This document shows positions 921 through 44,655 of a stretch of 64,000 bases of DNA, piece by piece. The notes beneath the pieces were generated by a model, which did no database searches, was not told the origin of the DNA, and saw only the letters and a list, made by a program, of their open reading frames with translations. The position numbers and the translations under genes were made by a program. This stretch comes from Patescibacteria group bacterium (GTDB lineage: Bacteria > Patescibacteriota > Patescibacteriia > Patescibacteriales > UBA12465), in NCBI GenBank assembly GCA_022710685.1, contig JAKLGM010000002.1, positions 1,701-65,700 on the forward strand, read 5' to 3'. Position 1 is the stretch's first letter. The number at the start of each line of letters is the position of its first letter.

Positions 921-929
921 ATATTTTAA

Positions 930-11633: not shown

Positions 11634-12673
11634 TACTGATAAACTACAAGGATTATGCTGATAAGTACCTGGCTGAATGCTGGGCTAGTTTGCGCTGCCA
11701 GGATTATGCTGGACCCATTACCACCTTCATTGTTGATAATGAGACCAGCGACGCTAGTTATAATTCCTTGAAAGCTATAGCTCCTGAAGCTGAGATTATC
11801 AGAAATAAAGATAATGATGGTTTTGCCAAGGGGAATAATGATGCTTTGAGGCTGGTTTCGGCTTTAGGCTATGAGTATGCCATCCTATTTAACATGGACA
11901 CGGTAGTAGAAGCTAATTGTGTCAGTGAATTAGTTCGAGCGGCCGAGGTTGATACTAAGGTGGCGGCAGTCCAGGCGCGCTTGATGCTCCATCCGGAAAC
12001 CGAATTGGTAAATAGTTTGGGTAACACGACGCATTTCTTGGGCTTCGGTTATTGCCAGGGCTATCGGGAAAAATTTAATGATAGCAATTTGGCGATAAAA
12101 GATATTATGTATCCTTCGGGCGCGGCGGTTTTATTTAATCTAGCCGCCCTGAAAAAAGTCGGAATGTTTGATGAAAGATTTTGGATGTATAATGAGGATC
12201 AGGATTTAGGTTGGCGGCTTTGGCTAGCCGGTTATAGTTGCATCTTAGCTCCGGCAGCCGTAGTTTATCACAAATATGAGTTTTCTAAGTCTATCAGCAA
12301 GTATTATTATATGGACCGGAATCGGACTCTGGCCATCTTGAAAAACTATCGTTTGGCTACTCTGTTCCTAATTTTTCCAGCATACGTTATAATGGAGTTG
12401 GGTTTGATATTTTTTGCCCTAAAAGGCGGCTGGTTTAAAGAGAAAAAGAAGGCTTGGTCCTATTTCTTCCGGCCTAGCACTTGGTTTTACTTGATGTTTG
12501 AACGGGCTAAAATCAAACAATTTAGAAAAGTGAAGGATTATCAACTGGCCGGGATGTTCTCGGGCCGCATTTGGTATCAAGAGGTCGGGGATTGGAAACT
12601 GCGCCTAGTTAATCCTTTTTTTGCCGCTTATTGGTGGCTGGTTAAGCAGATTTTACGCTTATTTAAGATTTAA
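11612..12673 (+). CDS. Family 2 glycosyltransferase with C-terminal membrane segments
   Basis: The ATG at 11612 gives MSKKVALILINYKDY. IVDNETSD, FNMDT and NEDQDL are GT2 motifs. It overlaps the upstream GT2 gene by 22 nt. Confidence 0.8.
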   Translation: MSKKVALILINYKDYADKYLAECWASLRCQDYAGPITTFIVDNETSDASYNSLKAIAPEAEIIRNKDNDGFAKGNNDALRLVSALGYEYAILFNMDTVVEANCVSELVRAAEVDTKVAAVQARLMLHPETELVNSLGNTTHFLGFGYCQGYREKFNDSNLAIKDIMYPSGAAVLFNLAALKKVGMFDERFWMYNEDQDLGWRLWLAGYSCILAPAAVVYHKYEFSKSISKYYYMDRNRTLAILKNYRLATLFLIFPAYVIMELGLIFFALKGGWFKEKKKAWSYFFRPSTWFYLMFERAKIKQFRKVKDYQLAGMFSGRIWYQEVGDWKLRLVNPFFAAYWWLVKQILRLFKI

Positions 12674-29074: not shown

Positions 29075-30205
29075 ATGAATTTTCGCAAAAAAGGCTTCAC
29101 TCTCATTGAGTTGTTGGTAGTTATCGCCATTATTGGCGTTTTAGCCACTATTTCTATCATCGCTCTCCAAAATGCTCGGGCTAAATCCCGCGATGCTAAA
29201 AGAGCGGGTGATATGAAACAAGTGCAAACGGCTCTAGAGTTGTTCTTTAATGACAAGAATCGTTATCCGACCGTGGAGGAGTGGACTACTGGCCAGATCT
29301 ATTCCACCTCCTCTGGTTCTACTTCTACCTATATGCAGATTATCCCTAATGCTTCAACCCCAGCCGATGGCCCTTGCACTGATACTCAAAACACTTTTTA
29401 TTACCAACAAACCGAGAATGGTAATTCCTATAATATTTCCTTCTGTTTGGGCAACACTACGGGCACTTTGGATGGTGGCCTAAAATGTTTGACCCCAGCA
29501 GGTATTATGGACACAGATTGTAGCGGCGGAGGCGGCGGGACTCCACCCCCAGCTTTTACTTGCGGCGACCAAGTTAATATTACCACTCTTGCTGGCCATA
29601 CTTGTAATACCGGCGCTCCGGATTATGACACCTGTACCTATGATACAGTTTCAATCGGCACCCAATGTTGGATGCAGGAGAATTTGAATGTTGGCAGCCA
29701 AGTCGCTGGCACCTCCGACCAATTTAATAATTCTACTTTAGAAAAATATTGTTTTGATGATACTTCCACCAATTGCCAAAACGATGGCGCTTTATACCAA
29801 TGGGATGAAACTATGCAGTATTCCGTTGCCGAAGGAGCTCAAGGCATCTGCCCGACTGGTTGGCATATTCCTAGCGATGCTGAACAAAATATACTTGATC
29901 AATATTTGAATGATACCACTTGTGTGGCTAATCGGGTTGGGGCTTGGGATTGTGCTAATGCCGGTACTAAGTTACAAGTCGGCGGCAGTTCTGGTTTCGA
30001 AGGTATATTAGCCGGCAACCGCAATAGTAGCGGGCTTTTTGATTTTCAAGGGATGCTCGGATTTATTTGGTCATCTTCTGCTATTTCACCTTCGGTTCCC
30101 GGCTCAGATGTTTGGTTCCGTAATTTAGAAGCGTTTTCTGAGTTCGTTTATCGTGGCTATAATTATCGGGTCGATGGTTTTTCTGTTCGTTGTCTCAAGG
30201 ATTAA
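29075..30205 (+). CDS. Type IV pilin-like protein with a FISUMP lectin-like head (paralog of the DGR target; not matched to the TR)
   Basis: KKGFTLIELLVVIAIIGVL prepilin motif. FISUMP blocks: SIGTQCWMQENLNVG, GALYQWDE, CPTGWHIPSDAEQ, GFEGILAGNR, IWSSS, FSVRCLKD. Confidence 0.85.
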   Translation: MNFRKKGFTLIELLVVIAIIGVLATISIIALQNARAKSRDAKRAGDMKQVQTALELFFNDKNRYPTVEEWTTGQIYSTSSGSTSTYMQIIPNASTPADGPCTDTQNTFYYQQTENGNSYNISFCLGNTTGTLDGGLKCLTPAGIMDTDCSGGGGGTPPPAFTCGDQVNITTLAGHTCNTGAPDYDTCTYDTVSIGTQCWMQENLNVGSQVAGTSDQFNNSTLEKYCFDDTSTNCQNDGALYQWDETMQYSVAEGAQGICPTGWHIPSDAEQNILDQYLNDTTCVANRVGAWDCANAGTKLQVGGSSGFEGILAGNRNSSGLFDFQGMLGFIWSSSAISPSVPGSDVWFRNLEAFSEFVYRGYNYRVDGFSVRCLKD

Positions 30206-30231
30206 ATAACTTTTACCACTGATTTGCAAAA

Positions 30232-30261
30232 ACACCGCAGATTGTTCTGCGGTGTTTTTTG
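30232..30261 (+). terminator. Intrinsic terminator after the first tandem pilin gene
   Basis: acaccgcag-attgtt-ctgcggtgt followed by tttttt. Confidence 0.8.
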
Positions 30262-30437
30262 TTAGTAGTCCTCCGAGAGGAGATATCTAAACATTTAAGC
30301 GAAATTATTGAGGAAATTAAGATCTGGGCGGTGTTTTTGACACTGATAAATTAATATTACTTTTTATAACTAGAAAAGTCAATTAACTTAAAGTCTAAAT
30401 TTTTTGTTTTAAAACCCAGTTCAAATCTGCCCCAATA

Positions 30438-30466
30438 TTGCCGGGGGGGGGGGGATATGGTATAAT
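30438..30466 (+). promoter_or_regulatory. Promoter of the DGR target gene, with a G12 homopolymer in the spacer
   Basis: ttgccg (30438-30443), 17-nt spacer, tataat (30461-30466), with TGg extended -10 at 30458-30460. The spacer is dominated by the G run at 30443-30454. Confidence 0.65.
30443..30454. repeat. Homopolymeric G12 tract
   Basis: The sequence ccgggggggggggggat contains 12 consecutive G. Confidence 0.95.
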
Positions 30467-30505
30467 ACGAGTATTAATAAAAGTTAAGTATTAATCTTGT
30501 TTTAT

Positions 30506-31609
30506 ATGAAATCTAAAAAAGCCTTCACCCTCATCGAGCTCTTAGTAGTAATAGCCATCATTGGTATCTTAGCAACTATTTCCGTTTTAGCTCTCAATAA
30601 TGCTAGGGCTAAATCCCGTGACGCCAAAAGAGTGGGGAATATGAAACAAGTCCAAACAGCCCTAGAGCTATTCTTTAACGACAAACAAAGATATCCCACC
30701 GCTGAAGAATGGAACACTGGAAAAATATACTCCACTACCACCAATTCCACCTCGACCTATATGCAAATAATACCAGTTGCTCCCACCCCTAATGATGGTA
30801 ATTGTACCACCGATCAAAACGCTATTAACTATATCCCTACCTCAGACGGAGCATCCTATTCTATCTCTTTCTGTCTGGGAGGTACTACCGGAACCCTAGC
30901 TCCCGGACCAAAATGTTTGACTCCTAGTGGAATTGTGGATATGGATTGTAGCGCTGGTAGTCCACCAGCTTTTGCTTGTGGTATTAGCCAAGTTACAATT
31001 TCTTCTATTGCCGGCCACACTTGTAATACTGGCGCCCCAGACTATGACACTTGTACCTATGACACTGTTGATATTAACGGTCAATGCTGGATGAAGCAAA
31101 ATATGAATATCGGTACTTATGTCACTGGTGCCACTACCCAAACCAATGACTCTAATTTACAAAAATATTGTTACGGCGATAATACCGGTAATTGTCTAAC
31201 TGACGGCGGTCTCTATCAATGGGATGAAGCTATGCAATATTCCGTCACTGAATTAGCTCAAGGCGTTTGCCCCGATGGTTGGCATATCCCCACTGACGCT
31301 GAACAAAATACGCTTGACCAATCATTAAATGATACTACTTGTAATGCTAATAGAATCGGGGATTGGGATTGTGCTAACGCCGGCACTAAATTACAAACTG
31401 GAGGTACTTCCGGATTTGAGGGTCTCTTAGCCGGCTACCGCGATCCCGGTGGGTTGTTCTACCTTCAGGGGACGTACGCGCTCTTCTGGTCGTCATCGAT
31501 TAGCGGGTCTGATGCTTGGGATCGGTACTTGCTCACTGGCCTCGCGACCGTTTTCCGCAATCATAGTGACCGAGCCCACGGCTTTTCTGTGCGTTGTCTT
31601 CAGGACTAA
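30506..31609 (+). CDS. DGR target (variable) protein: type IV pilin-like N-terminus plus a FISUMP/C-type-lectin-like head carrying the VR
   Basis: The ATG at 30506 gives MKSKKAFTLIELLVVIAIIG. FISUMP blocks: INGQCWMKQNMNIG, GGLYQWDEAM, CPDGWHIPTDAEQ, GFEGLLAGYR, FWSSS, FSVRCLQD. The last 177 nt are the VR. Confidence 0.9.
   Translation: MKSKKAFTLIELLVVIAIIGILATISVLALNNARAKSRDAKRVGNMKQVQTALELFFNDKQRYPTAEEWNTGKIYSTTTNSTSTYMQIIPVAPTPNDGNCTTDQNAINYIPTSDGASYSISFCLGGTTGTLAPGPKCLTPSGIVDMDCSAGSPPAFACGISQVTISSIAGHTCNTGAPDYDTCTYDTVDINGQCWMKQNMNIGTYVTGATTQTNDSNLQKYCYGDNTGNCLTDGGLYQWDEAMQYSVTELAQGVCPDGWHIPTDAEQNTLDQSLNDTTCNANRIGDWDCANAGTKLQTGGTSGFEGLLAGYRDPGGLFYLQGTYALFWSSSISGSDAWDRYLLTGLATVFRNHSDRAHGFSVRCLQD
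31430..31606 (+). repeat. DGR variable region (VR)
   Basis: Gap-free 177-nt alignment to 32191-32367. By hand count there are 36 mismatches, 25 of them at TR adenines. The 3' 29 nt are identical. Confidence 0.88.
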
Positions 31610-31612
31610 TTC

Positions 31613-31639
31613 GACTATTTTGACTATTTTGACTATTTT
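31613..31639 (+). repeat. 3 x 9-bp tandem repeat (gactatttt)
   Basis: Three perfect tandem copies begin 4 nt after the target-gene stop codon. Confidence 0.9.
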
Positions 31640-31640
31640 T

Positions 31641-31662
31641 CCGCCTCGTGTCAGCGAGGCGG
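31641..31662 (+). promoter_or_regulatory. GC-rich hairpin downstream of the VR (candidate DGR target-recognition hairpin and/or terminator)
   Basis: ccgcctcg-tgtcag-cgaggcgg: an 8-bp GC-rich stem with a 6-nt loop, 35 nt after the VR end. Confidence 0.55.
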
Positions 31663-31680
31663 AATTAATTAATTTTCCTT

Positions 31681-32025
31681 ATGGCTACTTATGATAATCT
31701 GCCGGTGTATAAAGCCAGTTATGATTTACTGCTGGAAATATTCATTTTCAGCAAGAATATGGATAAGGAATATAAATATACCATTGGGGATGATTTGAAA
31801 AAAGAAACCACGGCCATGATTACCAATATCTACCGTGCGAATTGCAGTCAGAATAAAAAAGAGTTAATCCAAGGTGGTCGGAAAAATTTAGAAGTCATCA
31901 GATTATATTTACGCTTAATCAAAGATTTGAAACAGATATCTCTATTAAAATTCGTAAAGATTAATGAAATTATTGAATCAATTTCTAAACAATTGAATTT
32001 TTGGCAAAATGCCATGAAATCATAA
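31681..32025 (+). CDS. avd: Accessory variability determinant (Avd)-like four-helix-bundle protein (TIGR02436 / 23S rRNA-IVS protein family)
   Basis: 114 aa. LPVYKASYDLLLEIFIFSKNM.KEYKYTIGDDLKKETTAMITNIYRAN fits the family pattern. It sits between the VR and the TR. Confidence 0.8.
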   Translation: MATYDNLPVYKASYDLLLEIFIFSKNMDKEYKYTIGDDLKKETTAMITNIYRANCSQNKKELIQGGRKNLEVIRLYLRLIKDLKQISLLKFVKINEIIESISKQLNFWQNAMKS

Positions 32026-32190
32026 TGGGCCAGAGTCGTCATCGGTTACGGCCATGGCGAGTGCGCCTCACTAGTCCAATAATCCACTAAATTTTTTTAA
32101 ATTTAGTAATTGACGGAGCAACCTGTCATTTTGCTGATTTTTTAATAAAATATCAAATCAGCCGAAGAGTTTAGCGATTATTATAAAAGA

Positions 32191-32367
32191 GCCGGCAACC
32201 GCAATACCAATGGGTCGTTCAACAATCAGGGAACGAACGCGAACTTCTGGTCATCTACCATTAGTGGACCGGACGCCTGGAATCGGAACTTGAACACCGG
32301 CTATGCGACCGTTAACCGCAATCATAATGACCAAGCCAACGGCTTTTCTGTGCGTTGTCTTCAGGAC
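32191..32367 (+). repeat. DGR template repeat (TR)
   Basis: Non-coding copy of the VR. Read in the VR frame, it has 14 AAY codons among 59 (AGNRNTNGSFNNQGTNANFW...NRNLNTGYATVNRNHNDQAN). It lies 55 nt upstream of the RT start. Confidence 0.88.
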
Positions 32368-32422
32368 TGGTCAAAAGGAGCCATATAACAATGGCTTCTT
32401 TTATTTTACTAAAATATTTTTT

Positions 32423-33634
32423 ATGTCCGATAAACTTCTTGTTGACCTCTTTCAAGCCTATTACGACGCTCGGCGTTACAAGAGAAATACGATGAGCGCT
32501 TTAAATTTTGAAATTAATTTAGAGCATAATATATTTGAATTATATAAAGAGATAAAAAATGGTACTTATCAAATTAGTCCCAGTCTGGCCTTTATAATTT
32601 TCGATCCGGTTCAGCGGGAAATTATCGCTTCTCCCTTTCGGAATCGAGTCGTTCATCATCTCGTTTTTAATTATATTAACCCTATTCTGGAAAAGCTCTT
32701 TATTTCAGACAGTTATAGCTGTCGCCAGGGCAAGGATATCAGTTACGGAGTTAAGCGAGTCGCCCATTTTGTCCGGTCTAGTTCACAAAATTATCGGACC
32801 GATAATTATATTCTTAAACTAGATATTTCCGGCTATTTTATGAGTATTAATCAAAAGATATTATATGATAAGGTAGAGAATTATTTATTAAGACATAACA
32901 CTAATTATCCTTTCGATTTAAAATTAATTTTAGCTCTATTAAAGAAAATTGTTTTTCACGATTATATCAAGGATTGCGTTATTAGAGGCGGGCACACTAA
33001 TTGGCAAAAATTACCCCGCAATAAAAGCTTATTTTTTACCCCTCCGGGTTTTGGTTTGCCGATAGGTAATTTAACCTCGCAATTATTTAGCAATGTTTAC
33101 CTTAATGATTTTGATCATTATATTAAACGGAATTTGAAGTTTAAATATTATGGCCGTTATGTTGATGATTTAATAATCATTGACGGCAGTAAAGAGAGCC
33201 TCCAAATAGCTATGGCCAAAATTGCGGAATATTTATCAGCAAATCTGAATCTAAAAATTCACCCCAGAAAAATATATTTACAGCCCTACACTAAGGACGT
33301 TAATTTTTTGGGCGGAATTATTAAGCCTTATAGAGTTTATGTCCGTCATCGGACTAAAGCTAGTTTTTATCGCTCAGTGGCTAAGTCCAATAATATTTTA
33401 AAAAATATAGATGTAGAAAAGAAAGCGCTAAGAAAAATTTTATCCAGTTTTAATTCCTATTTAGGATCATTGGGGCAATATAAAACCTATAATTTACGGC
33501 GTAAAATATTGGATAACAAACTATCTCCGGCCTTTTCGCGTTATTATAGATTGGGAAGTGGCAAGTTTAGATATAAGAAAATTATTTTGAAGAGATATTT
33601 TAAACTTATCCCCAGCTCCACCAAGCACGATTAA
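32423..33634 (+). CDS. DGR-type reverse transcriptase
   Basis: The ATG at 32423 gives MSDKLLVDLFQAYYDARRYKR. Motifs include GLPIGNLTSQLFSNVYLNDFD (DGR-specific [ILV]GxxxSQ), YGRYVDDLIII (YxDD), and FLGGIIKP. The track start at 32303 is an out-of-frame readthrough of the TR. Confidence 0.9.
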   Translation: MSDKLLVDLFQAYYDARRYKRNTMSALNFEINLEHNIFELYKEIKNGTYQISPSLAFIIFDPVQREIIASPFRNRVVHHLVFNYINPILEKLFISDSYSCRQGKDISYGVKRVAHFVRSSSQNYRTDNYILKLDISGYFMSINQKILYDKVENYLLRHNTNYPFDLKLILALLKKIVFHDYIKDCVIRGGHTNWQKLPRNKSLFFTPPGFGLPIGNLTSQLFSNVYLNDFDHYIKRNLKFKYYGRYVDDLIIIDGSKESLQIAMAKIAEYLSANLNLKIHPRKIYLQPYTKDVNFLGGIIKPYRVYVRHRTKASFYRSVAKSNNILKNIDVEKKALRKILSSFNSYLGSLGQYKTYNLRRKILDNKLSPAFSRYYRLGSGKFRYKKIILKRYFKLIPSSTKHD

Positions 33635-34030
33635 ATTATCTCGTCAAAATCTCAAAAATCACCCCCAAAATCAGCCCTTAACCTATCCCCGAATTTATGC
33701 TATGATACATTTAGACTTAATCAATAAAATTATATAATCTCGGAACCCATTGTTGAACGGATGTCGCTCGCATGAAACGCAAAATAAAAATAAAACTCAT
33801 AAAATAATATCCCCTGTAAATTAGCAAAGTCTTTCTTTGCCAATTGAAACTAATTAACCAGCATTTGTCCGTGCTCGGTTTTTTTTGTTTTGGCAAAGAC
33901 TATTAATTTCGTCGTCGCCTGTTTAGTTAGCGAAACAGGTCAATGATTCCTTTAATGTAAACAAGCGTATTAGTTTGTTTTAGCCTATTGGTGGCACTTG
34001 CCCCGTCGCTAGTGGCTAGTTCTGTTCTTT

Positions 34031-34140
34031 AATCTCTCATTTTTGACCGTCCCCCCAAGCATTGTTTTTTATTTTTTTTTCGGCGAGGCTTGTCCGCTCG
34101 CCGAAAAAATAAAAACAAGCTGGGGGCGGTAAATGAGATT
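34031..34140. repeat. Long imperfect palindrome centred on a GC hairpin (bidirectional terminator and/or replication origin)
   Basis: aatctc(tc)attt..accg.cccccaagc.ttgtttttt.atttttttttcggcgag-gcttgtccg-ctcgccgaaaaaataaaaacaagctgggggcggtaaatgagatt. The core stem is cggcgag/ctcgccg. Confidence 0.7.
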
Positions 34141-34217
34141 TTAAATAAAAGTAGTGTTTGTTCGCCGTGTGCCTCTATTAGACTTGACTATAGGCACACT
34201 TAACGCCGTTATAACTT

Positions 34218-35006
34218 ATGGAAATTAAACCACGAGTTTATCGGCAGAAGCTGATAGAGTCGGGTGATTATGTAGAAATATATGATTATGAGAACTTCAT
34301 TAAAATTAATCAAAAGAGAAGACATGGAAGAATTAAAAAGGAAAAAATTAAGCAACCACATGAAGATGATAACAGTGAATTGAGTAAAGTATTAAAAAGT
34401 GAATTTTCCTATAGGCGAAGTCGGTCAAATATTGTTAGACTGGTAAATTCTAACCCCGATTTAAGAGTATTTATCACGCTAACCTTTGATAGCCATAAAT
34501 TCGGGGATAAGCCGTTTACTGATTTTAAAGAATGTAATTTGATATTTTCTAATTTCATTAAACGACTAAAACGGAAATATCCCGATTTAAAATATCTGGC
34601 CGTGCCCGAATTTCAAAGCGACTATTATCACCGCACCAATATCCGAAAAGAATTTGGCGGTAATATTCATTATCACTTATTATCTAATTTGCCGTTTATT
34701 GAGAACACCGCTCTCGAGAAAATCTGGGGCTACGGATTCATTAAAATCAATAATATCCGACAGGTGTCTGCTGTCGGTCCGTATGTCGCTAAATACATCG
34801 GCAAAGAATTATTTGACGGTCGCTTAAATGGAAAGAAAAAACTATTTTATTCGAGGACTCTTAATCGCTCTAAAATTATTATTACCTACTCAAAAATAAA
34901 AGAATATCTTAATAACTTAAAATCACCTCTCAAGCTTTTGCACGAGACAACTTACAAGTCCGAATATCTCGGCAGAGCTCGCTATCGGCTCTATAAAAAT
35001 AGTTAG
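34218..35006 (+). CDS. Rolling-circle replication initiator, HUH superfamily, Y2 type (phiX174 gpA-like motifs)
   Basis: Motif I is VFITLTF, motif II is IHYHLLSN (HUH), and motif III is GPYVAKYIGK. The YxxxY pair compares with phiX174 A protein YVAKYVNK. Confidence 0.65.
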   Translation: MEIKPRVYRQKLIESGDYVEIYDYENFIKINQKRRHGRIKKEKIKQPHEDDNSELSKVLKSEFSYRRSRSNIVRLVNSNPDLRVFITLTFDSHKFGDKPFTDFKECNLIFSNFIKRLKRKYPDLKYLAVPEFQSDYYHRTNIRKEFGGNIHYHLLSNLPFIENTALEKIWGYGFIKINNIRQVSAVGPYVAKYIGKELFDGRLNGKKKLFYSRTLNRSKIIITYSKIKEYLNNLKSPLKLLHETTYKSEYLGRARYRLYKNS

Positions 35007-35053
35007 CAATATCGTCTTTGATTCTTTTAGGTAAAACATAAGCCCTCTAACCA

Positions 35054-35215
35054 ATGATTACTATCGAGGCCCTTAAAAAATTAATAGTAAGTCGTGGTCG
35101 ACAGTATTCCGATGACGAATTGGAGACAGTTAGACGCGACTTATACCAACTTGCTCATCTCTCGTTTAAGTATTATCTCAATCAACAAAATATACTAACA
35201 AAATCAATAAAATAA
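35054..35215 (+). CDS. Small hypothetical ORF (53 aa) between Rep and the recombinase
   Basis: ATG at 35054 giving MITIEALKKLIVSRGRQYSDDELETVRRDLYQLAHLSFKYYLNQQNILTKSIK. It is below the track threshold, helical-looking, and sits where an excisionase/RDF might lie. The function is pure speculation. Confidence 0.25.
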   Translation: MITIEALKKLIVSRGRQYSDDELETVRRDLYQLAHLSFKYYLNQQNILTKSIK

Positions 35216-35330
35216 ATGAAAAATATTGTAAAAATTAAAATATATGTTATTATCCTTAATGGACACAATTAAATCAAAGTATATCAACCATTCTCAAATC
35301 ACAATGACGGCAGATGAGTCGTTTTGATAT

Positions 35331-35396
35331 AAAGAGAGCAGTGGCTGTTTCAGTTATACTTTGTATAATTGTGTCCAACAGTTCACTGCTCTCTTT
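35331..35396. repeat. 13-bp perfect inverted repeat flanking a TATAAT box upstream of the recombinase gene
   Basis: aaagagagcagtg (35331-35343) pairs with cactgctctcttt (35384-35396). tataat lies at 35364-35369 inside the loop. A second inverted repeat pairs ggacacaatt (35261-35270) with aattgtgtcc (35367-35376). Confidence 0.7.
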
Positions 35397-35417
35397 TTAT
35401 TATTAACTTTTAACCCT

Positions 35418-36941
35418 ATGCAAAAAGGAATAATCTATTACCGAGTTTCAACCGAAGACCAAGCTCAAACTGGCGTTAGCTTGGAACAGCAGAAAAACGC
35501 CTGTCTTGATTATGCTCAAAAAAATGATATTGAAATATTAAAATTATTTCACGATGACGGAGTGTCCGCTAAAACCACTAAAAGGGCGGGGCTCCAAGAG
35601 TTGCTGGCGTATTGTAAAAAGAATCATAAAGAAGTTGATTGTCTGATAGTTTATAAAATTGATAGGTTGTCGAGAAATGTTAAAGACTACGCCACGCTAT
35701 TAATGGCACTAGGCGAATTTAACATTAAATTTATTTCCACCACTGAGACCGTCAATGAAACATCAAGCGGAAAACTTATCGGTACGATTATGGCCTCGTT
35801 CGCTCAATTTGATAATGATGTTAGGAGCGAAAGAGTGTCGGTCTGTATGCTCGAAAAGGCTAAGCAGGGAATCTGGTGCTTCAAAGCCCCATTCGGTTAT
35901 CTAAACGCTCGAGACGGGCAAAATAGAGCCATTATAACCGTGGATAAGGAGCGTATGCCAGTTATTAAAATGGCCTTTGAAAAGTTTGCCACGGGATTAT
36001 ATAAAATGGAGGAAATTAGAAAAATGATGATTAAAGCTGGTTTTAAAACATGGCGAGATAAAGAGCTAAATATTCAAAGTTTATCCCGTTTATTATCGGA
36101 AAAGTTCTATATCGGCATTATGACGATTAAAGGCCAAGAATATCAAGGCACGCATGAATTATTTATTGATGAAAATACATATTACAAATGCCAAAAATTA
36201 ATCCGCACTTCTAAGCGAGGTGATAATATTGCTTTTAAACGCACTAACGAAATGTTTCCGTTAAGAAATTTTATTTTATGTCCTCATTGTCATCGCCCTT
36301 TTACCGCCTACTTATCTAAAAATCGCCAAGGCAAATATTATCCGTATTATAAATGCTATAACAAGGACTGTCACAATTTTAAATCTGTCGCCAAAGATAG
36401 GCTGGAAAATCAGTTCAGCAATTATATCAAAGAAATATCGCCTGATCCTGATTTTGCTAAAGCCTATCAAAAAATTGTGGTTGAGGAATGGGAAAAGGGA
36501 CTGCAAAATTATAAGGGTAGTATTGTTAATCTCAAGAATGAATTAGATAAACTAGAAATAGAGAAGTCTAAATTAATTGAAATGAAGAAAAAGGATTTGC
36601 TTGACGATGAGGACTTTAAAGAAGAAATGTATAAAGTAAAGATTAAAATAGCCGAAAAGCAGTCTATCCCAGCCGAGAGTATAGCTGATAATTTTGATGT
36701 TAAAAAAGAATCCAAAAAAGTTTTTGATATTATCCCCGACCTCAATAAATTCTATAATGGTCTCGGCTATTACGACAAGCTGAAATTACAGGGTTTGATT
36801 TTTCCTGAAAAGGTCTATTTTGATTTTTCCGAAAGTCGAACCCCTAAATTGTCGCTAATATTACAAACCAAAAGAGAGCTGGCAACTGCCAGCTCCCCGA
36901 AAGTAGCCTCTAGGGGAATCGAACCCCTGTTACATGGTTGA
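35418..36941 (+). CDS. Large serine recombinase (resolvase domain + recombinase domain + zinc ribbon + coiled coil)
   Basis: The ATG at 35418 gives MQKGIIYYRVSTEDQ, with the catalytic Ser in YRVST. Other features are VYKIDRLSRN, the zinc ribbon CPHCHRPF...YYKCYNKDC, and a Lys/Glu-rich coiled coil. The last 38 nt overlap tRNA-Glu. Confidence 0.88.
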   Translation: MQKGIIYYRVSTEDQAQTGVSLEQQKNACLDYAQKNDIEILKLFHDDGVSAKTTKRAGLQELLAYCKKNHKEVDCLIVYKIDRLSRNVKDYATLLMALGEFNIKFISTTETVNETSSGKLIGTIMASFAQFDNDVRSERVSVCMLEKAKQGIWCFKAPFGYLNARDGQNRAIITVDKERMPVIKMAFEKFATGLYKMEEIRKMMIKAGFKTWRDKELNIQSLSRLLSEKFYIGIMTIKGQEYQGTHELFIDENTYYKCQKLIRTSKRGDNIAFKRTNEMFPLRNFILCPHCHRPFTAYLSKNRQGKYYPYYKCYNKDCHNFKSVAKDRLENQFSNYIKEISPDPDFAKAYQKIVVEEWEKGLQNYKGSIVNLKNELDKLEIEKSKLIEMKKKDLLDDEDFKEEMYKVKIKIAEKQSIPAESIADNFDVKKESKKVFDIIPDLNKFYNGLGYYDKLKLQGLIFPEKVYFDFSESRTPKLSLILQTKRELATASSPKVASRGIEPLLHG

Positions 36942-36975
36942 GAACCATGTGTCCTAACCGTTAGACGAAGAGGCC
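36904..36975 (-). tRNA. tRNA-Glu (anticodon CTC)
   Basis: The reverse complement folds as GGCCTCT-TC-GTCT..GGAC-A-CATGG-TTCTCAA-CCATG-TAAC-AGGGG-TTCGATT-CCCCT-AGAGGCT-A. The cloverleaf is fine except for a G1-U72 terminal wobble. Confidence 0.85.
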
Positions 36976-41117: not shown

Positions 41118-43766
41118 TTATTTGACGTTCATAATAACCTCATCTTTCAATCCGATATCAATTGCGACTTTGTCGCCGTCGTTGATCTTGCCTTCGACGA
41201 TATTGAGAGCCAGTTCATCCAGAATCATGTTTTGGATAATGCGTTTGAGCGGTCGGGCGCCGAAAGTGATATCATAGCCTTTTTCGGCCAGCATCTTTTT
41301 TACCTTCTGGCTGATCCTGAGGCTGATATTGCGGTTGAGCAGACGGTTTTCTACTTTCTCTAACTCCAGGTCAACAATGTTGACTAAAGCTTCTTTGCTC
41401 AAGCTCTTGAAGAGGACAATCTCATCGATGCGATTAAGAAATTCTAGCTTGAAGTATTCTCGCAGAATCTTGTCAATTTTGGCGCGCATTTCGCCGCTGT
41501 GGGCTTTGTCCGCTTGGGCTTGATCGGTGGAATCGCTGAAGCCGATGGAATATTGCTTGATGATCTCATTACCCAAGTTAGAGGTCATGATAATGATGGT
41601 GTTTTTGAAGTTGACGACTCGGCCCTTGGAATCAGTCAAACGGCCATCGTCTAATATTTGGAGCAGCATATTGAAAGTTTCCGGATGAGCTTTTTCAATT
41701 TCATCGAAGAGGACGACGCTATAGGGGCGGCGGCGGATCTTTTCCGTTAATTGGCCGCCTTCGTCGTGGCCGATATAGCCTGGAGGGGAACCAATCATCT
41801 TGGCGACGCTATGTTTTTCCATAAATTCGCTCATATCCAATCGGACTAGGGCGTTTTCATCGTTAAACATAAAGCGGGCTAGGGCTTTGGCTAATTCGGT
41901 TTTGCCGACTCCGGTCGGACCGACGAAAAGGAAAGATCCGATCGGTTTCTTCTCTTCATTGATGCCGGCGCGGCTGCGGCGTAGGGCATTAGCGACAGCG
42001 TGGATAGCTTCATTCTGGCCGACTACCGCCTGGATCAGTTCGGTTTCGGCATTGGCTAGTTTTTTGATTTCGCTTTCCAACATTTTTTGGACTGGAATTC
42101 CGGTCCAGCGGGAAACAACACGGGCGATATCTTCTTCGTCCACTTCTTCCTTCAAGATACGTTGGCCTTTTTTCTGAATTTTGACTAATTCACCCTCTTG
42201 ATCTTTGATGGCTTTTTCTAGTTTCGGTATCAAGTCATATTTAATCTGCGCGACCTTAGTTAGGTCATCGCCGCGCCGCTGGATGATCTCAGCGTTAGCT
42301 TTTAGTTCATCGATTTTCTTTTTGCTGTCGCGGATTTGGGAAATGATGTTCTTTTCATTCTGCCAATGGAGTTCCAGCTGGTTGGCTTTTTCTTTGAGTT
42401 CGCCTAATTGTTTGTTGATGTTTTTGATTTTAGCGGCGTCATCTTTGGTATTAGTCTTGTTGGATGACAGGCCGGCCTTGACGATTTCCAGGCGCTTGAT
42501 CTCGCGTTTCAGGTTGTCCAGTTCTTCCGGCATAGAATCTATCTCCATGCGCAGGGAAGAGGTGGCTTCATCAATCAAGTCTACTGCTTTGTCCGGCAGG
42601 AAGCGATCGCTGATATAGCGGGTAGAAAGCTGGGCCGCGGCCACAATGGCATTGTCGGTAATCCGGACACCATGATGGACTTCGTATTTTTCTTTGATGC
42701 CGCGTAAAATTGCTACGGTGTCTTCAATGCTCGGCTCCAGGACGTAAATGGGTTGGAAGCGGCGTTCCAGCGCTTGGTCGCGTTCAATGTATTTCTGATA
42801 TTCTTTAGTGGTGGTGGCGCCGATGGTGCGCAATTCGCCTCGGGCCAAGACCGGTTTTAACATGTTAGAGGCATCAATGGAGCCTTCGGAAGCGCCGGCG
42901 CCGACTAGAGTATGGAGCTCATCGATGAAGAGGATTATCTTGTCGCCTTGCGATTTAATTTCTTTCAGGACGGCCTTCAGACGTTCTTCAAATTCGCCGC
43001 GGAACTTGGCGCCAGCCACGAGGGAGCCTAAATCCAAAGAAACAATTTCTTTATTTTTCAGCATCTCCGGCACATCGCCAGCCACAATGCGTTGGGCCAA
43101 GCCTTCAACTATGGCGGTCTTGCCGGTTCCGGCTTCGCCGATTAACACCGGGTTATTCTTGGTGCGGCGCAAGAGAACTTGCATGATGCGCCGGATTTCC
43201 ATGTCGCGGCCGATAACCGGGTCAAGTTTTTCTTCTCGAGCTTTATCAGTTAGATTGGTAGTATATTTTTCTAAAACTTTGAATTTAGTGTCCGGATCCG
43301 GGTCGGTAATCGGATTCTGGCCGCGCAATTCTTGCAGGACCTCTTTGACTTTCTGGTAGTCCAGCTTGAAATTTAACAGAATTTTTTGGGCCATGGTCGG
43401 GACGCCGATGAGAGCTAGGAGAATATGCTCGGTGGAAATATATTCATCGCCCATGCCATCGGCTTCTTTCTTGGATCTTTCCAAAACTAAAGCCACATCG
43501 CTCGTGCCTTGGACCGCTTGGACCGGTCCGGCGCTGGGAGTGGTTTTTACTTTGGGTAATTTATTTATTTCTTTGATAGTGAAGTCTTCAATAATATCCG
43601 GATCGATTTTCATCTTCTCCAGTATCGGCTTGATCAGGCTTTCATTCTGTTGCAAGAGAGCCAAGAGCAAGTGCAGGGCTTCGATATATTGCTGGCCGAA
43701 GTCCTGGGCGATGATTTGAGAGTTGATGATGGCTTCTTGGGATTTATTGGTAAATTTGTTGAACAT
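41118..43766 (-). CDS. clpB: Chaperone disaggregase ClpB
   Basis: 882 aa with a Clp-N domain, two AAA+ modules ([24 protein letters not shown]) and a long coiled-coil middle domain. Confidence 0.93.
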
Positions 43767-44288: not shown

Positions 44289-44654
44289 ATGAATAGCAGC
44301 CATTTTTTGATTTATCTCCCTAAAATTATCCTGCAAATCATCCGGGATTTTTTGTATTTTCCCCTGTGGTGGTATAGCGTCGGCTTGTGGCGCACCTTGA
44401 TCCACGTCGTTAATTTTTGGAGCGAGCGCCAGATTAATTTAGGCTTAGCGGTTTGGGCCAAGAATCTTTTTACGCCGATGTACGGCCAGCAAGATTTTAT
44501 GGGGAAGTTTATCAGCTTCTTCATCCGCCTGATTCAGATTATCGTCCGCAGTATCTTTATGCTTTTCTGGTTGATTGTCGGCTTGGTTTGGTTAGTATTC
44601 TGGATTGCTTTACCTCCGCTTACTATCGGCGGCATCATTTATCAATTGCTCTAA
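44289..44654 (+). CDS. Hypothetical small membrane protein
   Basis: Hydrophobic helices (FFIRLIQIIVRSIFMLFWLIVGLVWLVFWIALPPL). The stop lies 1 nt before the next start. The start is the ATG at 44289 or the TTG at 44277. Confidence 0.55.
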   Translation: MNSSHFLIYLPKIILQIIRDFLYFPLWWYSVGLWRTLIHVVNFWSERQINLGLAVWAKNLFTPMYGQQDFMGKFISFFIRLIQIIVRSIFMLFWLIVGLVWLVFWIALPPLTIGGIIYQLL

Positions 44655-44655
44655 T

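What the first reader, a model, noticed from the sequence alone, without database searches (positions are those of the whole stretch)
30506..33634. Complete DGR whose variable region is the C-terminus of a type IV pilin-like, lectin-headed protein
**What the sequence shows.** The last 177 nt of CDS 30506-31609 (VR, 31430-31606) recur at 32191-32367 (TR). The TR lies in the non-coding gap between a 114-aa four-helix-bundle (Avd-like) ORF and a reverse transcriptase ORF.

**Mismatch pattern.** My gap-free hand alignment gives 36 mismatches. Of these, 25 fall at TR adenines (25 of 47 A positions changed) against 11 of 130 non-A positions. The 3' terminal 29 nt (acggcttttctgtgcgttgtcttcaggac) are identical, as expected for an IMH-type boundary.

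**TR design.** Read in the VR frame, the TR has 14 AAY (Asn) codons among 59 (AGNRNTNGSFNNQGTNANFW...). This is the classical DGR design.

**RT and gene order.** The RT carries GLPIGNLTSQLFSN (DGR-type [ILV]GxxxSQ motif) and YVDD. The order target-avd-TR-RT is that of the Bordetella phage BPP-1 prototype.

**Why it stands out.** The N-terminus KKAFTLIELLVVIAIIG is a prepilin cleavage/N-methylation signal. The diversified segment is the end of a FISUMP (TIGR02145-like, presumably C-type-lectin-like) head. That implies a retroelement-diversified pilus subunit or adhesin, in a genome that looks like a host-dependent CPR bacterium and also encodes PilB and four other pilin-like genes in this window. 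DGRs are known to be common in CPR genomes. I cannot verify from memory whether a prepilin-fused FISUMP target has been described.
Basis: partly seen in the sequence, partly recalled or inferred. Interest (0 to 1): 0.88.

Follow-up and report, generated by a model that had tools for sequence, protein, structure and literature searches.

The report
Mobile retroelement diversifying a pilin adhesin
A reverse-transcriptase cassette that rewrites the tip of a pilus-type adhesin in an ultrasmall (CPR) bacterium is real, and it travels with its target gene on a 6.6-kb integrating mobile element; in this copy, however, the template now present did not write the current adhesin variant.

Summary
The repeat is real. 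VR 31429-31607 and TR 32190-32368 align gap-free over 179 nt with 36 mismatches: 25 at TR adenines and 11 elsewhere (Fisher p=1.4e-9). The parts list is complete:
- a target with a prepilin signal plus a FISUMP domain
- bAvd
- TR
- an RT whose best solved relative is Bordetella phage bRT (E=4e-34)

1. The cassette and its target lie inside a 6,638-bp integrative element (30268-36905). The element also carries a rolling-circle Rep and a large serine recombinase and sits at the 3' end of tRNA-Glu. A copy 97.5-99.4% identical occupies the same site in a genome whose flanking genes are only 67-80% identical. Another copy abuts tRNA-Arg.
2. Seven sibling loci have 0-2 non-A mismatches, so this copy's 11 are exceptional. 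Nine of them match other TR alleles, so the VR was written by a different TR.
3. A G9-G21 tract sits in the target promoter spacer, which suggests phase variation.

The kind is known: DGRs are abundant in CPR, pilin-like targets have been noted, and Bacteroides type V pilus DGRs ride on ICEs. This is a new variant, not a new category.

The parts
30265..30267 (+). attL junction trinucleotide GTA. The host side is ...GTTTTTTGTTA and the element side starts at 30268 (GTCCTCCGAGAGG...).
   Evidence: Homology with L002, which has an unrelated left flank, and with L008 begins here. The same GTA sits at the right junction.
30268..30354 (+). Displaced 3' coding end of the serine recombinase gene, i.e. 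the right half of attP. In a circle or tandem array it continues the recombinase ORF: ...SSPKV|VLREEISKHLSEIIEEIKIWAVFLTLIN*.
   Evidence: Joining 36905 to 30268 gives an in-frame tail. That tail is homologous to the read-through tail in L008 (PLREKISKRFNEIIGEIKRWARFL...) and to the remnant at the L008 unit 1/2 junction.
30438..30466 (+). Promoter-like site of the target gene: TTGCCG, a 17-nt spacer containing G12 (30443-30454), then TG-TATAAT.
   Evidence: It scores 10/12 with an extended -10. Tract length is G12 in window/L003/L004/L006 and G13 in the otherwise identical L005/L007. It is G11 in L001, G10 in L002/L008/L021, G9 in L023 and G21 in L024.
30506..31609 (+). Target (variable protein) gene, 367 aa. 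It comprises a prepilin signal (MKSKKA|FTLIE), a long alpha1 helix, a small pilin beta-domain, a Cys-rich linker and a FISUMP domain.
   Evidence: Pfam and NCBIfam matches. AF2 model pLDDT 88.6, helix 9-60. Foldseek top hits are type IV pilins. The C-domain model (pLDDT 94.8) matches phage FISUMP proteins at E=1.9e-12.
31429..31607 (+). Variable region (VR), the last 59 codons of the target.
   Evidence: It is the only part of the gene that differs from L001: 42 differences in 179 nt, against 0 in the other 923 nt.
31578..31607 (+). 3' block identical between VR and TR (IMH-like boundary). Homology ends at the stop codon.
   Evidence: The block is invariant in the closest alleles (window, L001, L002, L009, L019); more distant siblings carry 1-4 changes, mirrored in their own TR and VR.
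31639..31664 (+). GC-rich hairpin (11-bp stem, 4-nt loop) starting 30 nt after the stop codon. It is preceded by 3x GACTATTTT. It is a candidate homing cis-element and/or terminator.
   Evidence: dG -13.2 kcal/mol, z=-5.0. The 73-nt spacer is 97-100% conserved in four sibling loci (L001, L002, L008, L009) whose neighbouring avd is 89-95% identical, and 86-89% in three more distant ones.
31681..32025 (+). avd (accessory variability determinant), 114 aa.
   Evidence: PF22296 bAvd 45.2 bits (cut-off 40). NF033474 48.8 bits, below its cut-off of 80. PHROG 3206 'Avd protein of DGR' at 1.7e-16.
32190..32368 (+). Template repeat (TR), non-coding, with 48 A and 14 AAY codons in the VR frame.
32373..32402 (+). 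Hairpin immediately 3' of the TR, in the TR-RT spacer.
   Evidence: dG -9.3 kcal/mol, z=-3.7. Its role was not tested.
32423..33634 (+). DGR reverse transcriptase, 403 aa, with GLPIGNLTSQLFSNVY and YVDD motifs.
   Evidence: Best PDB match is 8ub7_A (the 328-aa bRT) at E=4.4e-34, against 4e-7 for the best group II RT. The motifs align with bRT's GIPIGSLTSQLFANVY and YMDD. PHROG 1423 at 7e-93.
34066..34199 (+). Conserved non-coding region upstream of rep, with two hairpins: 34066-34118, and 34167-34199 with loop TCTATTAGACTTGACTA. Candidate replication origin.
   Evidence: The 34 nt TATTAGACTTGACTATAGGCACACTTAACGCCGT are 100% conserved even in a unit that is only 71% identical overall.
34218..35006 (+). 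Rolling-circle replication initiator, 262 aa, with HUH motif HYHLL and YVAKY.
   Evidence: PF23343 at 57.4 bits. PHROG replication initiation families. The closest annotated phage relative is an inovirus Rep, 33.6% identity, E=2e-29. Motifs.
35054..35215 (+). 53-aa ORF conserved between rep and the recombinase gene. Function unknown.
   Evidence: It is syntenic and 77-89% identical in L019 and L020. No family hit.
35418..36941 (+). Large serine recombinase (integrase). Element-encoded up to 36905; its last 12 codons are read from tRNA-Glu DNA.
   Evidence: Resolvase, Recombinase and Zn_ribbon_recom domains. PHROG 95 integrase at 8e-88. Junction analysis.
36903..36975 (-). tRNA-Glu(CTC). Its 3' end is the integration site (attR, GTA 36903-36905).
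   Evidence: ARAGORN and Rfam. Homology with L008 stops at 36908. L019 has the same element end abutting tRNA-Arg(TCT).

Best explanation
**What it is.** Window 30268-36905 is a 6.6-kb integrative mobile element of a Patescibacteria (Falkowbacteria-like) genome, inserted at the 3' end of tRNA-Glu.

**Backbone.**
- a rolling-circle Rep with an ori-like hairpin region
- a 53-aa ORF
- a large serine recombinase whose ORF spans attP

**Cargo.** A complete BPP-1-type diversity-generating retroelement together with its own target gene.

**The target.** It is a modular type IV pilin-like protein. It has a class III signal peptide and an alpha1 helix for membrane extraction and filament incorporation, followed by a small pilin domain and a C-terminal FISUMP ligand-binding domain.

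**Inferred mechanism, by homology with BPP-1.**
1. avd-TR-RT is transcribed.
2. RT-Avd copies the TR RNA and misincorporates opposite adenines.
3. The cDNA replaces the last 59 codons of the target. It is anchored by the identical 3' 29 nt, and perhaps by the conserved downstream hairpin.
4. This rewrites 29 codons, about 10^25 possible peptides.

**Other layers.** Target expression is probably switched by slippage of a poly-G tract in the promoter spacer. The whole module moves between lineages and so transfers 'evolvable adhesion'.

**This copy.** The VR carries the non-adenine fingerprint of other TR alleles. It was therefore last written by a different TR. That TR was either replaced by recombination between element alleles or acted in trans from a co-resident element. 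The present TR has not visibly rewritten the VR.

**Shown versus inferred.**
- Shown: anatomy, A-bias, family memberships by sequence, element boundaries, near-identity across divergent hosts, the TR/VR allele mismatch, VR-only divergence from L001, and variable tract lengths.
- Inferred: the homing mechanism, pilus incorporation, the adhesin role, phase variation, and current mobility and activity.
For: **DGR**
- The A-bias has p=1.4e-9.
- bAvd scores above the Pfam cut-off.
- The RT matches bRT at E=4e-34, with the [ILV]GxxxSQ and YxDD motifs aligned.
- The VR is at the 3' end of the ORF.
- Sibling loci with 47-92% RT identity have TR/VR pairs with 16-27 A mismatches and 0-2 non-A mismatches.

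**Diversification really happened on this scaffold**
- L001 differs from the window by 0 of 923 nt in the rest of the gene and 0 of 73 nt downstream, but by 42 of 179 nt in the VR.
- A sister protein cluster shows 13 variants that differ almost only at the homologous C-terminal positions.

**Pilin**
-.

**Element**
- The recombinase tail is split between 36905 and 30268 and reads through in L008.
- The right junction is at tRNA-Glu in the window and L002, and at tRNA-Arg in L019.
- The left flank is unrelated in L002.
- Element DNA is 97.5-99.4% identical between the window and L002. Flanking fmt, def, Memo, ClpB, DnaB and rSAM are 67-80% identical.
- GC is 0.32-0.38 across RT-rep-recombinase against 0.42-0.48 in the flanks.

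**Non-cognate TR**
- There are 11 non-A mismatches, and 10 of them cluster (p=4e-5).
- Nine of the 11 equal the base, or derive from an A, in other sampled TR alleles.
- A two-piece chimera of the L002 and L019 TRs leaves 23 A and 3 non-A mismatches.
- A recombination breakpoint lies between the VR and avd: 0% then 11.3% divergence against L001.

**Poly-G**
-.
Against: - No excised circle, empty attB or read-level data could be obtained. Present-day mobility and present-day homing are therefore unproven.
- The identical VR is assembled in five data sets. This argues for low or no activity in this lineage, although those samples may share one population.
- In L021 and L023 a related DGR plus target lacks the Rep/recombinase backbone. 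The cargo-backbone association is therefore not universal.
- Homopolymer lengths from short-read assemblies are error-prone, and two contigs break at the tract.
- No PilB, PilC or PilD lies in the window. Assembly into a filament rests on the N-terminal signature and on literature about CPR pili (PMC9894109, PMC11623550).
- The C-type-lectin fold of the FISUMP domain is not significantly supported by PDB structure search.
Confidence: 0.75

Rival explanations
1. Decaying or fossil DGR. The cassette in this lineage has been silent for a long time, and the 11 non-A mismatches are ordinary drift in the VR and/or the TR.
For: - Only 69% of mismatches fall at A.
- The VR is identical in five assemblies.
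- A sister copy (L002) has lost the RT altogether through a deletion between 9-nt repeats.
Against: - The rest of the target gene (923 nt) and the VR-avd spacer (73 nt) show zero differences from L001. There has been no time for 8% drift.
- The non-A mismatches are clustered (p=4e-5). Nine of 11 coincide with alleles seen in other TRs.
- The RT, Avd and TR are intact.
Confidence: 0.12
2. The DGR and its target are chromosomal. The Rep-ORF53-recombinase block is an unrelated small element that happened to insert between the RT and tRNA-Glu.
For: - L021 and L023 carry a related target-avd-TR-RT without Rep or recombinase.
- The host also has chromosomal prepilin-FISUMP paralogs, at 29075-30205 and 930-2120.
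- The target's GC (0.43-0.46) resembles the host's.
Against: - The recombinase's own 3' coding end lies upstream of the target gene (30268-30354) and is in frame when joined to 36905. This places the target, avd, TR and RT inside the att sites.
- Homology with L002 starts at that point, next to an unrelated left flank.
- Target DNA is 97.5-99.6% identical between hosts whose core genes are 67-80% identical.
Confidence: 0.08
3. The VR/TR discordance is an assembly artefact: a consensus stitched from several VR variants or from two co-assembled strains.
For: Hypervariable regions commonly break or blur metagenome assemblies. Several contigs of this locus end at the poly-G tract.
Against: The same VR and TR, base for base, were assembled independently by JGI, ENA (SPAdes) and Logan pipelines from five samples.
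Confidence: 0.04
4. The target is not a pilus subunit. It could be a type II-secretion-like pseudopilin or simply a membrane-anchored surface lectin that uses a prepilin-type signal.
For: - The best NCBIfam full-length-type hits include GspG, below cut-off.
- JGI names some homologs 'general secretion pathway protein G'.
- The protein is 367 aa, far larger than major pilins.
- No pilus machinery genes lie in the window.
Against: - Modular minor pilins with grafted adhesive modules are established in Streptococcus sanguinis T4P (PMC8179133, PMC9934059).
- CPR bacteria are monoderm-like and use T4P for host attachment (PMC9894109, PMC11623550).
- The structure model matches T4 pilins first.
Confidence: 0.2

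Closest known systems
Bordetella phage BPP-1 DGR (mtd-avd-TR-brt)
   Same: - Same gene order.
- The VR is at the 3' end of the target ORF.
- A-specific TR/VR mismatches and AAY-rich TR design.
- The RT aligns with bRT through the IGxxxSQ and YxDD motifs (E=4e-34).
- Avd family.
- GC-rich hairpin downstream of the VR. Its role in BPP-1 is from my own knowledge of Guo et al. 2011.
   Different: - The target is a cellular pilin-like protein, not a phage tail-fibre tip.
- The carrier is a 6.6-kb Rep/serine-integrase element, not a tailed phage.
- No IMH/IMH* difference is visible inside the repeat, because homology simply ends at the stop codon.
- The present TR is not the VR's template.
Category 'd' / CLec2 DGR targets (DUF1566, DUF823, Fib_succ_major; Legionella LtdA), Wu et al. 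2018, PMC5758913
   Same: The VR overlaps a Fib_succ_major/DUF1566-type C-terminal domain. The protein is surface-exposed.
   Different: LtdA-type proteins are lipoproteins. Here the N-terminus is a class III prepilin signal plus a pilin domain.
[quoted passage not shown]
   Same: A DGR diversifies a pilus-associated adhesin. The DGR and target co-evolve as one unit and are transferred horizontally on an integrative element.
   Different: - Type IV pilin-like architecture rather than type V.
- A CPR host rather than Bacteroides.
- The carrier is a minimal non-conjugative element (RCR Rep plus large serine recombinase, tRNA-site integration), not an ICE.
CPR DGRs (Paul et al. 2017; 'clade 2' of Roux et al. 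2021, PMC8144416)
   Same: - Patescibacterial host.
- avd-TR-RT cassette.
- C-terminal VR.
- Pilin-like structures among CPR targets were noted in 2017, as relayed by PMC6642488. A GspG-type pilin domain on a VR-bearing target was listed as rare in PMC11661182.
   Different: - Roux et al. state that CPR clade-2 DGRs are almost entirely cellular.
- They also state that the targets typically lack recognisable transmembrane or other conserved domains.
- Here the target has a clear prepilin/pilin module and the locus is on a mobile element.
- I could not read Paul 2017.
Modular type IV pilins of Streptococcus sanguinis (PilB, PilC; PMC8179133, PMC9934059)
   Same: A pilin module (class III signal, alpha1, small beta domain) is fused to a C-terminal adhesive or lectin module.
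   Different: Different grafted module (FISUMP). No retroelement diversification is known for those pilins.
Phase-variable fimbrial and porin promoters with homopolymer tracts in the -35/-10 spacer (Bordetella fim, Neisseria porA; own knowledge)
   Same: A poly-G tract lies in the spacer. Its length differs between otherwise identical sequences, and G12 gives a 17-nt spacer.
   Different: Switching was not demonstrated here. The lengths come from short-read assemblies.

Membership tests
Diversity-generating retroelement (DGR) | Reverse transcriptase of the DGR clade (motif 4 [ILV]GxxxSQ, YxDD) | tested here: met
   The best solved relative is bRT 8ub7 at E=4.4e-34. The next best is a group II RT at 4e-7, then retron RT at about 6e-6. 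The motifs GLPIGNLTSQ and YVDD align to bRT. No formal phylogeny was run.
Diversity-generating retroelement (DGR) | TR/VR pair whose mismatches are concentrated at TR adenines | tested here: met
   25 of 48 A positions against 11 of 131 non-A positions, p=1.4e-9. At 69% A it falls below the at-most-three-non-A filter of MetaCSST (PMC6642488). The excess is explained by TR allele exchange.
Diversity-generating retroelement (DGR) | Accessory protein Avd | tested here: met
   PF22296 bAvd at 45.2 bits against a cut-off of 40. PHROG 3206 at 1.7e-16. NCBIfam NF033474 scores below its cut-off, 48.8 against 80.
Diversity-generating retroelement (DGR) | VR at the 3' end of a target ORF, in a variation-tolerant ligand-binding (C-type-lectin-like) fold | tested here: inconclusive
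   The position at the 3' end is met. The FISUMP domain is significant, and Wu 2018 groups such VRs as CLec2. My Foldseek search of a pLDDT-94.8 model gave CTLD top hits only at E>0.3.
Diversity-generating retroelement (DGR) | Ongoing mutagenic homing (VR variants differing at TR-A positions) | tested here: inconclusive
   L001 has the same gene with a different VR and nothing else changed. A sister family is hypervariable at the same positions. The window's own VR is invariant in five assemblies and discordant with its TR. Reads were not available.
Type IV pilin / type 4 filament subunit | Class III signal peptide: short basic leader, G/A at -1, F/M at +1, E at +5, followed by about 20 hydrophobic residues | tested here: met
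   The N-terminus is MKSKKA|FTLIELLVVIAIIGILA. PF07963 scores 33.9 bits (cut-off 21.2) and TIGR02532 scores 31.9 bits (cut-off 16.3). Position -1 is Ala here, and Gly in the neighbouring paralog.
Type IV pilin / type 4 filament subunit | Pilin fold: extended alpha1 packed on a beta-sheet | tested here: met
   The AF2 model has a helix at 9-60 followed by four to five strands. The Foldseek top hits are 4d40 (T4 pilin, prob 0.99, TM-target 0.66), 5vxx and EpsG 4lw9, but E-values are only 0.04-0.3 for the two-domain query.
Type IV pilin / type 4 filament subunit | Processing by prepilin peptidase and assembly by PilB/PilC machinery | not testable with these tools
   No such genes lie in the 64-kb window. 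The rest of the genome was not examined.
Site-specific integrative element (large serine recombinase) | Element-encoded integrase at one end, with defined junctions at a conserved chromosomal site | tested here: met
   Resolvase, Recombinase and Zn-ribbon domains. There are GTA junctions at 30265-67 and 36903-05. The element abuts the 3' end of tRNA-Glu in two genomes and tRNA-Arg in a third.
Site-specific integrative element (large serine recombinase) | Same element in different genomic backgrounds (evidence of transfer) | tested here: met
   The element is 97.5-99.4% identical while the flanking core genes are 67-80% identical.
Site-specific integrative element (large serine recombinase) | Excised circular form or empty attB | tested here: inconclusive
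   Only head-to-tail junctions in L008/L020, where the recombinase ORF reads through an attP-like site. No circle or empty site was found.
Inovirus (filamentous ssDNA phage) | Rolling-circle Rep plus morphogenesis ATPase (pI/Zot) and coat proteins | tested here: not met
   The Rep is inovirus-like (33.6% identity, E=2e-29; HUH and YxxKY motifs). The 6.6-kb element has no Zot-like ORF, whereas the reference inovirus has one.

The most novel reading that the evidence does not exclude
The element may be an inovirus-derived, pilus-dependent hitch-hiker. On this reading it is a minimal ssDNA replicon that has dispensed with its own morphogenesis genes. It encodes a pilin-type, DGR-diversified and phase-variable receptor-binding subunit. 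The host's type IV pilus machinery assembles that subunit, and the element uses it to reach new cells (by pilus-mediated contact or DNA uptake), not only to help its CPR host attach. The TR allele shuffling seen here would then be cross-talk: co-resident or tandem elements writing each other's VRs. That would add scaffold-level change on top of adenine mutagenesis.
Probability: 0.07. Interest if true: 0.85.

Novelty: new variant of a known kind. Interest (0 to 1): 0.58.

Why it matters
**Attachment specificity in CPR bacteria.** Cultivated CPR bacteria are obligate episymbionts, and type IV pili mediate their attachment to host bacteria (PMC9894109, PMC11623550). How they match or switch hosts is an open question.

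**Three stacked layers of variation.** A pilin-type adhesin here carries:
- adenine-directed rewriting of 29 codons in its binding surface
- a probable on/off switch in its promoter
- carriage on a small element that moves between lineages differing by 20-30% in core genes

This is a concrete, testable candidate for host-range determination.

**A counter-example to a published generalisation.** Roux et al. (PMC8144416) state that CPR DGRs are cellular and that their targets lack recognisable domains. This locus departs from both.

**A methods point.**
- Non-adenine TR/VR mismatches can be a readable fingerprint of which TR allele last wrote a VR.
- Filters that discard pairs with more than a few non-A mismatches will miss recombinant loci like this one.

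Tried and rejected
- **Second VR.** An A-blind scan of both strands of the window with the TR found none.
- **The neighbouring paralog (29075-30205) as a second target.** Rejected. It shows only 44-50% match at non-A positions and has an indel, although it shares an exact 17-mer with the TR 5' end.
- **RT infidelity as the source of the non-A mismatches.** Rejected, because cognate pairs in seven sibling loci have 0-2.
- **Direct repeats of tRNA-Glu as att sites.** None found, as expected for a serine recombinase. The boundaries came from comparative junctions instead.
- **Empty site or other contexts, via the exact paralog protein.** Only the window's own contig was found.
- **Rep relatives in IMG/VR.** None.
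- **Avd against PDB sequences.** No hit.
- **PDB fold search of the FISUMP domain.** Nothing significant.
- **PilB.** Thirty large ORFs were scanned and none is a T4P ATPase or platform protein. The two AAA+ proteins are ClpB-like.
- **Paul et al. 2017 (PMC5436926).** The paper is not held, so prior description of pilin-like CPR targets is known only second-hand.
- **Rfam.** Only four tRNAs at gathering threshold.

Full report
**1. The observation**

- The window holds a 179-nt gap-free direct repeat, 31429-31607 and 32190-32368, at 80% identity.
- Taking the downstream copy as template, there are 36 mismatches. Of these, 25 fall at the 48 template adenines and 11 at the other 131 positions. 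The odds ratio is 11.9 and Fisher p=1.4e-9.
- The reverse assignment shows no bias.
- The 3' 29 nt are identical, and homology ends at the stop codon of ORF 30506-31609.
- Read in the ORF frame, the template has 14 AAY codons and 29 codons that adenine mutagenesis could change. That is about 10^25.6 possible peptides.
- No other site in the window resembles the template once adenines are ignored.

**2. The parts**

*Target*
- The 367-aa protein carries a prepilin methylation motif (PF07963 33.9 bits, TIGR02532 31.9 bits) and a FISUMP domain (PF09603 104 bits, TIGR02145 102 bits). All four scores are above curated cut-offs.
- Its N-terminus, MKSKKA|FTLIELLVVIAIIG, has F+1 and E+5. Position -1 is Ala.
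- An alignment-based AlphaFold model (pLDDT 88.6) has a 52-residue helix (9-60) followed by a small sheet.
- The best PDB matches are a Shewanella type IV pilin (prob 0.99), the gonococcal pilus and the pseudopilin EpsG, followed by snake-venom and CD72 C-type-lectin domains. None reaches E<1e-3.
- The C-terminal domain modelled alone (pLDDT 94.8) matches phage FISUMP proteins (E=1.9e-12). Its matches to solved CTLDs are only weak (E>0.3).

*Avd and RT*
- ORF 31681-32025 is bAvd (PF22296 at 45.2 bits against a cut-off of 40; PHROG 'Avd protein of DGR' at 1.7e-16).
- The RT most likely starts at 32423.
- Its best solved relative is the 328-aa Bordetella phage bRT (8ub7, E=4.4e-34). The best group II intron RT scores 4e-7 and retron RTs about 6e-6.
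- GLPIGNLTSQLFSNVY and YVDD align with bRT's GIPIGSLTSQLFANVY and YMDD.

**3. This DGR belongs to a family with the same target type**
- Genome and metagenome scans with the RT returned loci at 47-92% RT identity.
- Each has avd-TR-RT and a VR at the 3' end of the upstream gene. TR/VR pairs show 16-27 A mismatches and only 0-2 non-A mismatches.
- Where the target is complete (L008/L020, L021, L023), it again has a prepilin N-terminus plus FISUMP.
- The architecture itself is very common in Patescibacteria, especially 'Candidatus Falkowbacteria' as named by the sources: 1651 hits at E<=1e-5 among the 8000 candidates scored.
- The window encodes two further full copies (29075-30205 and 930-2120) and a fourth prepilin ORF at its left edge. 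None of these is matched by the TR.
- In a sister cluster at 52% identity, 13 full-length variants differ almost exclusively in the last ~60 residues, at the positions homologous to this VR.

**4. Evidence that diversification acted on this very scaffold**
- The 90% cluster of the window protein has three members.
- Contig L001 carries the same gene with 0 differences in the 923 nt before the VR and 0 in the 73 nt after it, but 42 differences inside the 179-nt VR.
- L001's own TR/VR pair has 19 A and 2 non-A mismatches. L002's has 24 and 2.

**5. The anomaly: the window's VR was not written by the window's TR**
- Ten of the 11 non-A mismatches lie in TR positions 62-117 (p=4e-5). They are mostly synonymous third-position changes.
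- I aligned ten TR alleles and eight VRs. The window VR carries the L002-type TR allele across positions 64-88 and the L001/L019-type allele at 109-115.
- Nine of the 11 'non-A' mismatches are thus bases present in other TR alleles, or derived from an A there.
- A two-piece chimera of the L002 and L019 TRs leaves 23 A and 3 non-A mismatches.
- Against L001, divergence jumps from 0% (target, VR-avd spacer) to 11.3% in avd and about 6% in the TR. Segment identities against other loci are mosaic.
- Element alleles therefore recombine. The VR keeps a fingerprint of the template that last rewrote it.
- I cannot tell whether the cassette was swapped after the last homing event or the VR was written in trans by a co-resident element. 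Tandem arrays exist in L008/L020.
- The same VR and TR were assembled, base for base, from five samples by three pipelines. This excludes an assembly artefact, and it suggests little recent turnover in this lineage.

**6. The locus is cargo of a mobile element**

*Boundaries*
- Downstream of the RT lie a conserved hairpin-rich region, an RCR Rep (PF23343; HUH HYHLL, YVAKY), a 53-aa ORF and a large serine recombinase.
- Homology with L008 runs from the end of the target gene to 36908. That is the 3' end of tRNA-Glu(CTC), 36903-36975 on the minus strand.
- The 77 nt that follow the recombinase gene in L008 are homologous to window 30264-30339, just upstream of the target gene.
- Joining 36905 to 30268 extends the recombinase ORF in frame by VLREEISKHLSEIIEEIKIWAVFLTLIN*. 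This is homologous to the read-through tail in L008.
- The recombinase gene therefore spans attP, and integration has split it. The element is 30268-36905 (6,638 bp), with GTA at both junctions.

*Evidence for transfer*
- L002 has an unrelated left flank, and homology starts at the same point. It has the same right flank.
- L019 has the same element end abutting tRNA-Arg(TCT).
- Between the window and L002, element DNA is 97.5-99.4% identical. The syntenic flanking genes fmt, def, Memo, ORF498, ClpB, DnaB and a radical-SAM gene are 67-80% identical. This is clear evidence of recent horizontal transfer.
- GC drops to 0.32-0.38 across RT-rep-recombinase, against 0.42-0.48 in the flanks.

*Limits and the nature of the backbone*
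- L002 has lost 3.65 kb (most of the RT, rep, and most of the recombinase gene) between 9-nt repeats CTGTCGCCA. It still shows a clean TR/VR pair.
- The association is not universal. L021 and L023 have a related target-DGR without this backbone.
- The closest annotated phage Rep is from an inovirus (33.6% identity, E=2e-29). The element has no Zot-type morphogenesis gene, so it is not an inovirus.

**7. Other cis features**
- The target's promoter-like site (TTGCCG, 17-nt spacer, TG-TATAAT; 30438-30466) contains a G12 tract.
- A G tract sits at the same place in every related target promoter. Its length is 9, 10, 11, 12, 13 or 21, and 12 versus 13 among otherwise identical contigs.
- This is the classical layout of a slipped-strand phase switch. 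Short-read homopolymer lengths are unreliable, however, and two contigs break there.
- The VR-avd spacer is 97-100% conserved in four sibling loci (L001, L002, L008, L009) whose neighbouring avd is 89-95% identical, and 86-89% in three more distant ones. It holds three GACTATTTT repeats and an 11-bp GC-rich hairpin (31639-31664, z=-5).
- By analogy with the BPP-1 target-site hairpin (own knowledge), the hairpin may guide homing. It could equally be a terminator.

**8. Comparison with what is known**
- DGRs are enriched in CPR (PMC8144416).
- Fib_succ_major/DUF1566 VRs form Wu et al.'s category 'd' (PMC5758913).
- 'Putative pilin structures' among CPR targets were reported by Paul et al. 2017, as cited in PMC6642488. 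I could not read the original.
- A GspG-type pilin domain on a VR-bearing target is listed as rare in PMC11661182.
- Modular type IV pilins with grafted adhesive modules are established in S. sanguinis (PMC8179133, PMC9934059).
- Roux et al. describe CPR clade-2 DGRs as almost entirely cellular, with targets that typically lack recognisable domains. This locus departs from both statements.
- I found nothing in the searchable library describing a DGR on a Rep/serine-recombinase mini-element, or the use of non-A mismatches to trace TR allele exchange.

**9. Verdict**
- The finding is a genuine DGR with a type IV pilin-like, FISUMP-headed target.
- It is a new variant of a known kind.
- The added value lies in three things: carriage on a small, recently transferred integrative element; the non-cognate TR/VR pair that exposes recombination or trans-writing between element alleles; and the probable phase-variable promoter.
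- Still inferred, not shown: activity in this lineage, excision, pilus incorporation and adhesin function.

Noticed in passing
L001 1-137 joined to 129-2580 (= window 34051-34187 fused to 29890-32342): In this Logan contig the Rep-upstream region is fused to the middle of the paralog gene, at a 6-nt microhomology ACTTGA. On the element side the join falls inside the loop of the conserved hairpin GTGTGCCT...AGGCACAC (34167-34199), immediately upstream of rep. This is where an HUH Rep would be expected to nick. It could be a Rep-mediated rearrangement or a chimeric assembly.
   Followed up: partly
L002 12203-12217 (= window 32727 / 36379): A sister genome (GCA_964639785.1) carries the same element at the same tRNA-Glu, but with a 3.65-kb deletion between 9-nt repeats CTGTCGCCA. 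The deletion removes most of the RT, rep and most of the recombinase gene. The target, avd and TR remain, and the TR/VR pair is still clean (24 A, 2 non-A). The copy is immobilised and RT-less.
   Followed up: yes
L008 2384-13200 (same sequence as L020): Head-to-tail array of element units:
- a remnant with a prepilin-FISUMP gene only
- a complete DGR unit
- a third unit in which the cargo is a 461-aa ORF with no Pfam or PHROG hit (11076-12461), followed by the same ori-like region, rep, ORF53 and recombinase gene

The backbone therefore carries alternative cargos.
   Followed up: partly
L021 4845-6850 and L023 9871-11725: A second, unrelated DGR (RT about 31% identical; TR/VR 13 A/1 non-A and 10 A/3 non-A) lies directly downstream of the pilin-targeting DGR. 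In L021 it is preceded by its own G13 tract.
   Followed up: no
window 930-2120 (-), 1-929 (-), 29075-30205 (+): Three further prepilin-type ORFs. Two are confirmed as N_methyl plus FISUMP. None is matched by the TR. The paralog at 29075-30205 shares an exact 17-mer (30010-30026, AGCCGGCAACCGCAATA) with the 5' end of the TR. It has Gly at -1 of the prepilin site, whereas the DGR target and its closest homologs have Ala.
   Followed up: partly
window 36906-36941: Because integration split the recombinase gene, its ORF now ends with 12 codons read from the antisense strand of tRNA-Glu (ASRGIEPLLHG*). L019 has the analogous chimeric tail from tRNA-Arg. Whether the truncated or chimeric integrase is still active is unknown.
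   Followed up: no
The two large AAA+ ORFs (41118-43766 and 44605-47241) are ClpB-like according to the precomputed Pfam annotation of the syntenic L002 genes.
   Followed up: partly
L002/L013 and L009 record titles: GenBank titles call these MAGs 'uncultured Gammaproteobacteria bacterium'. Gene content, synteny with the window and protein neighbours point to Patescibacteria, so the taxonomic label is probably wrong.
   Followed up: no
window 35054-35215: A conserved 53-aa ORF lies between rep and the recombinase gene, with no family hit. Its position suggests a regulator or a recombination directionality factor.
   Followed up: no
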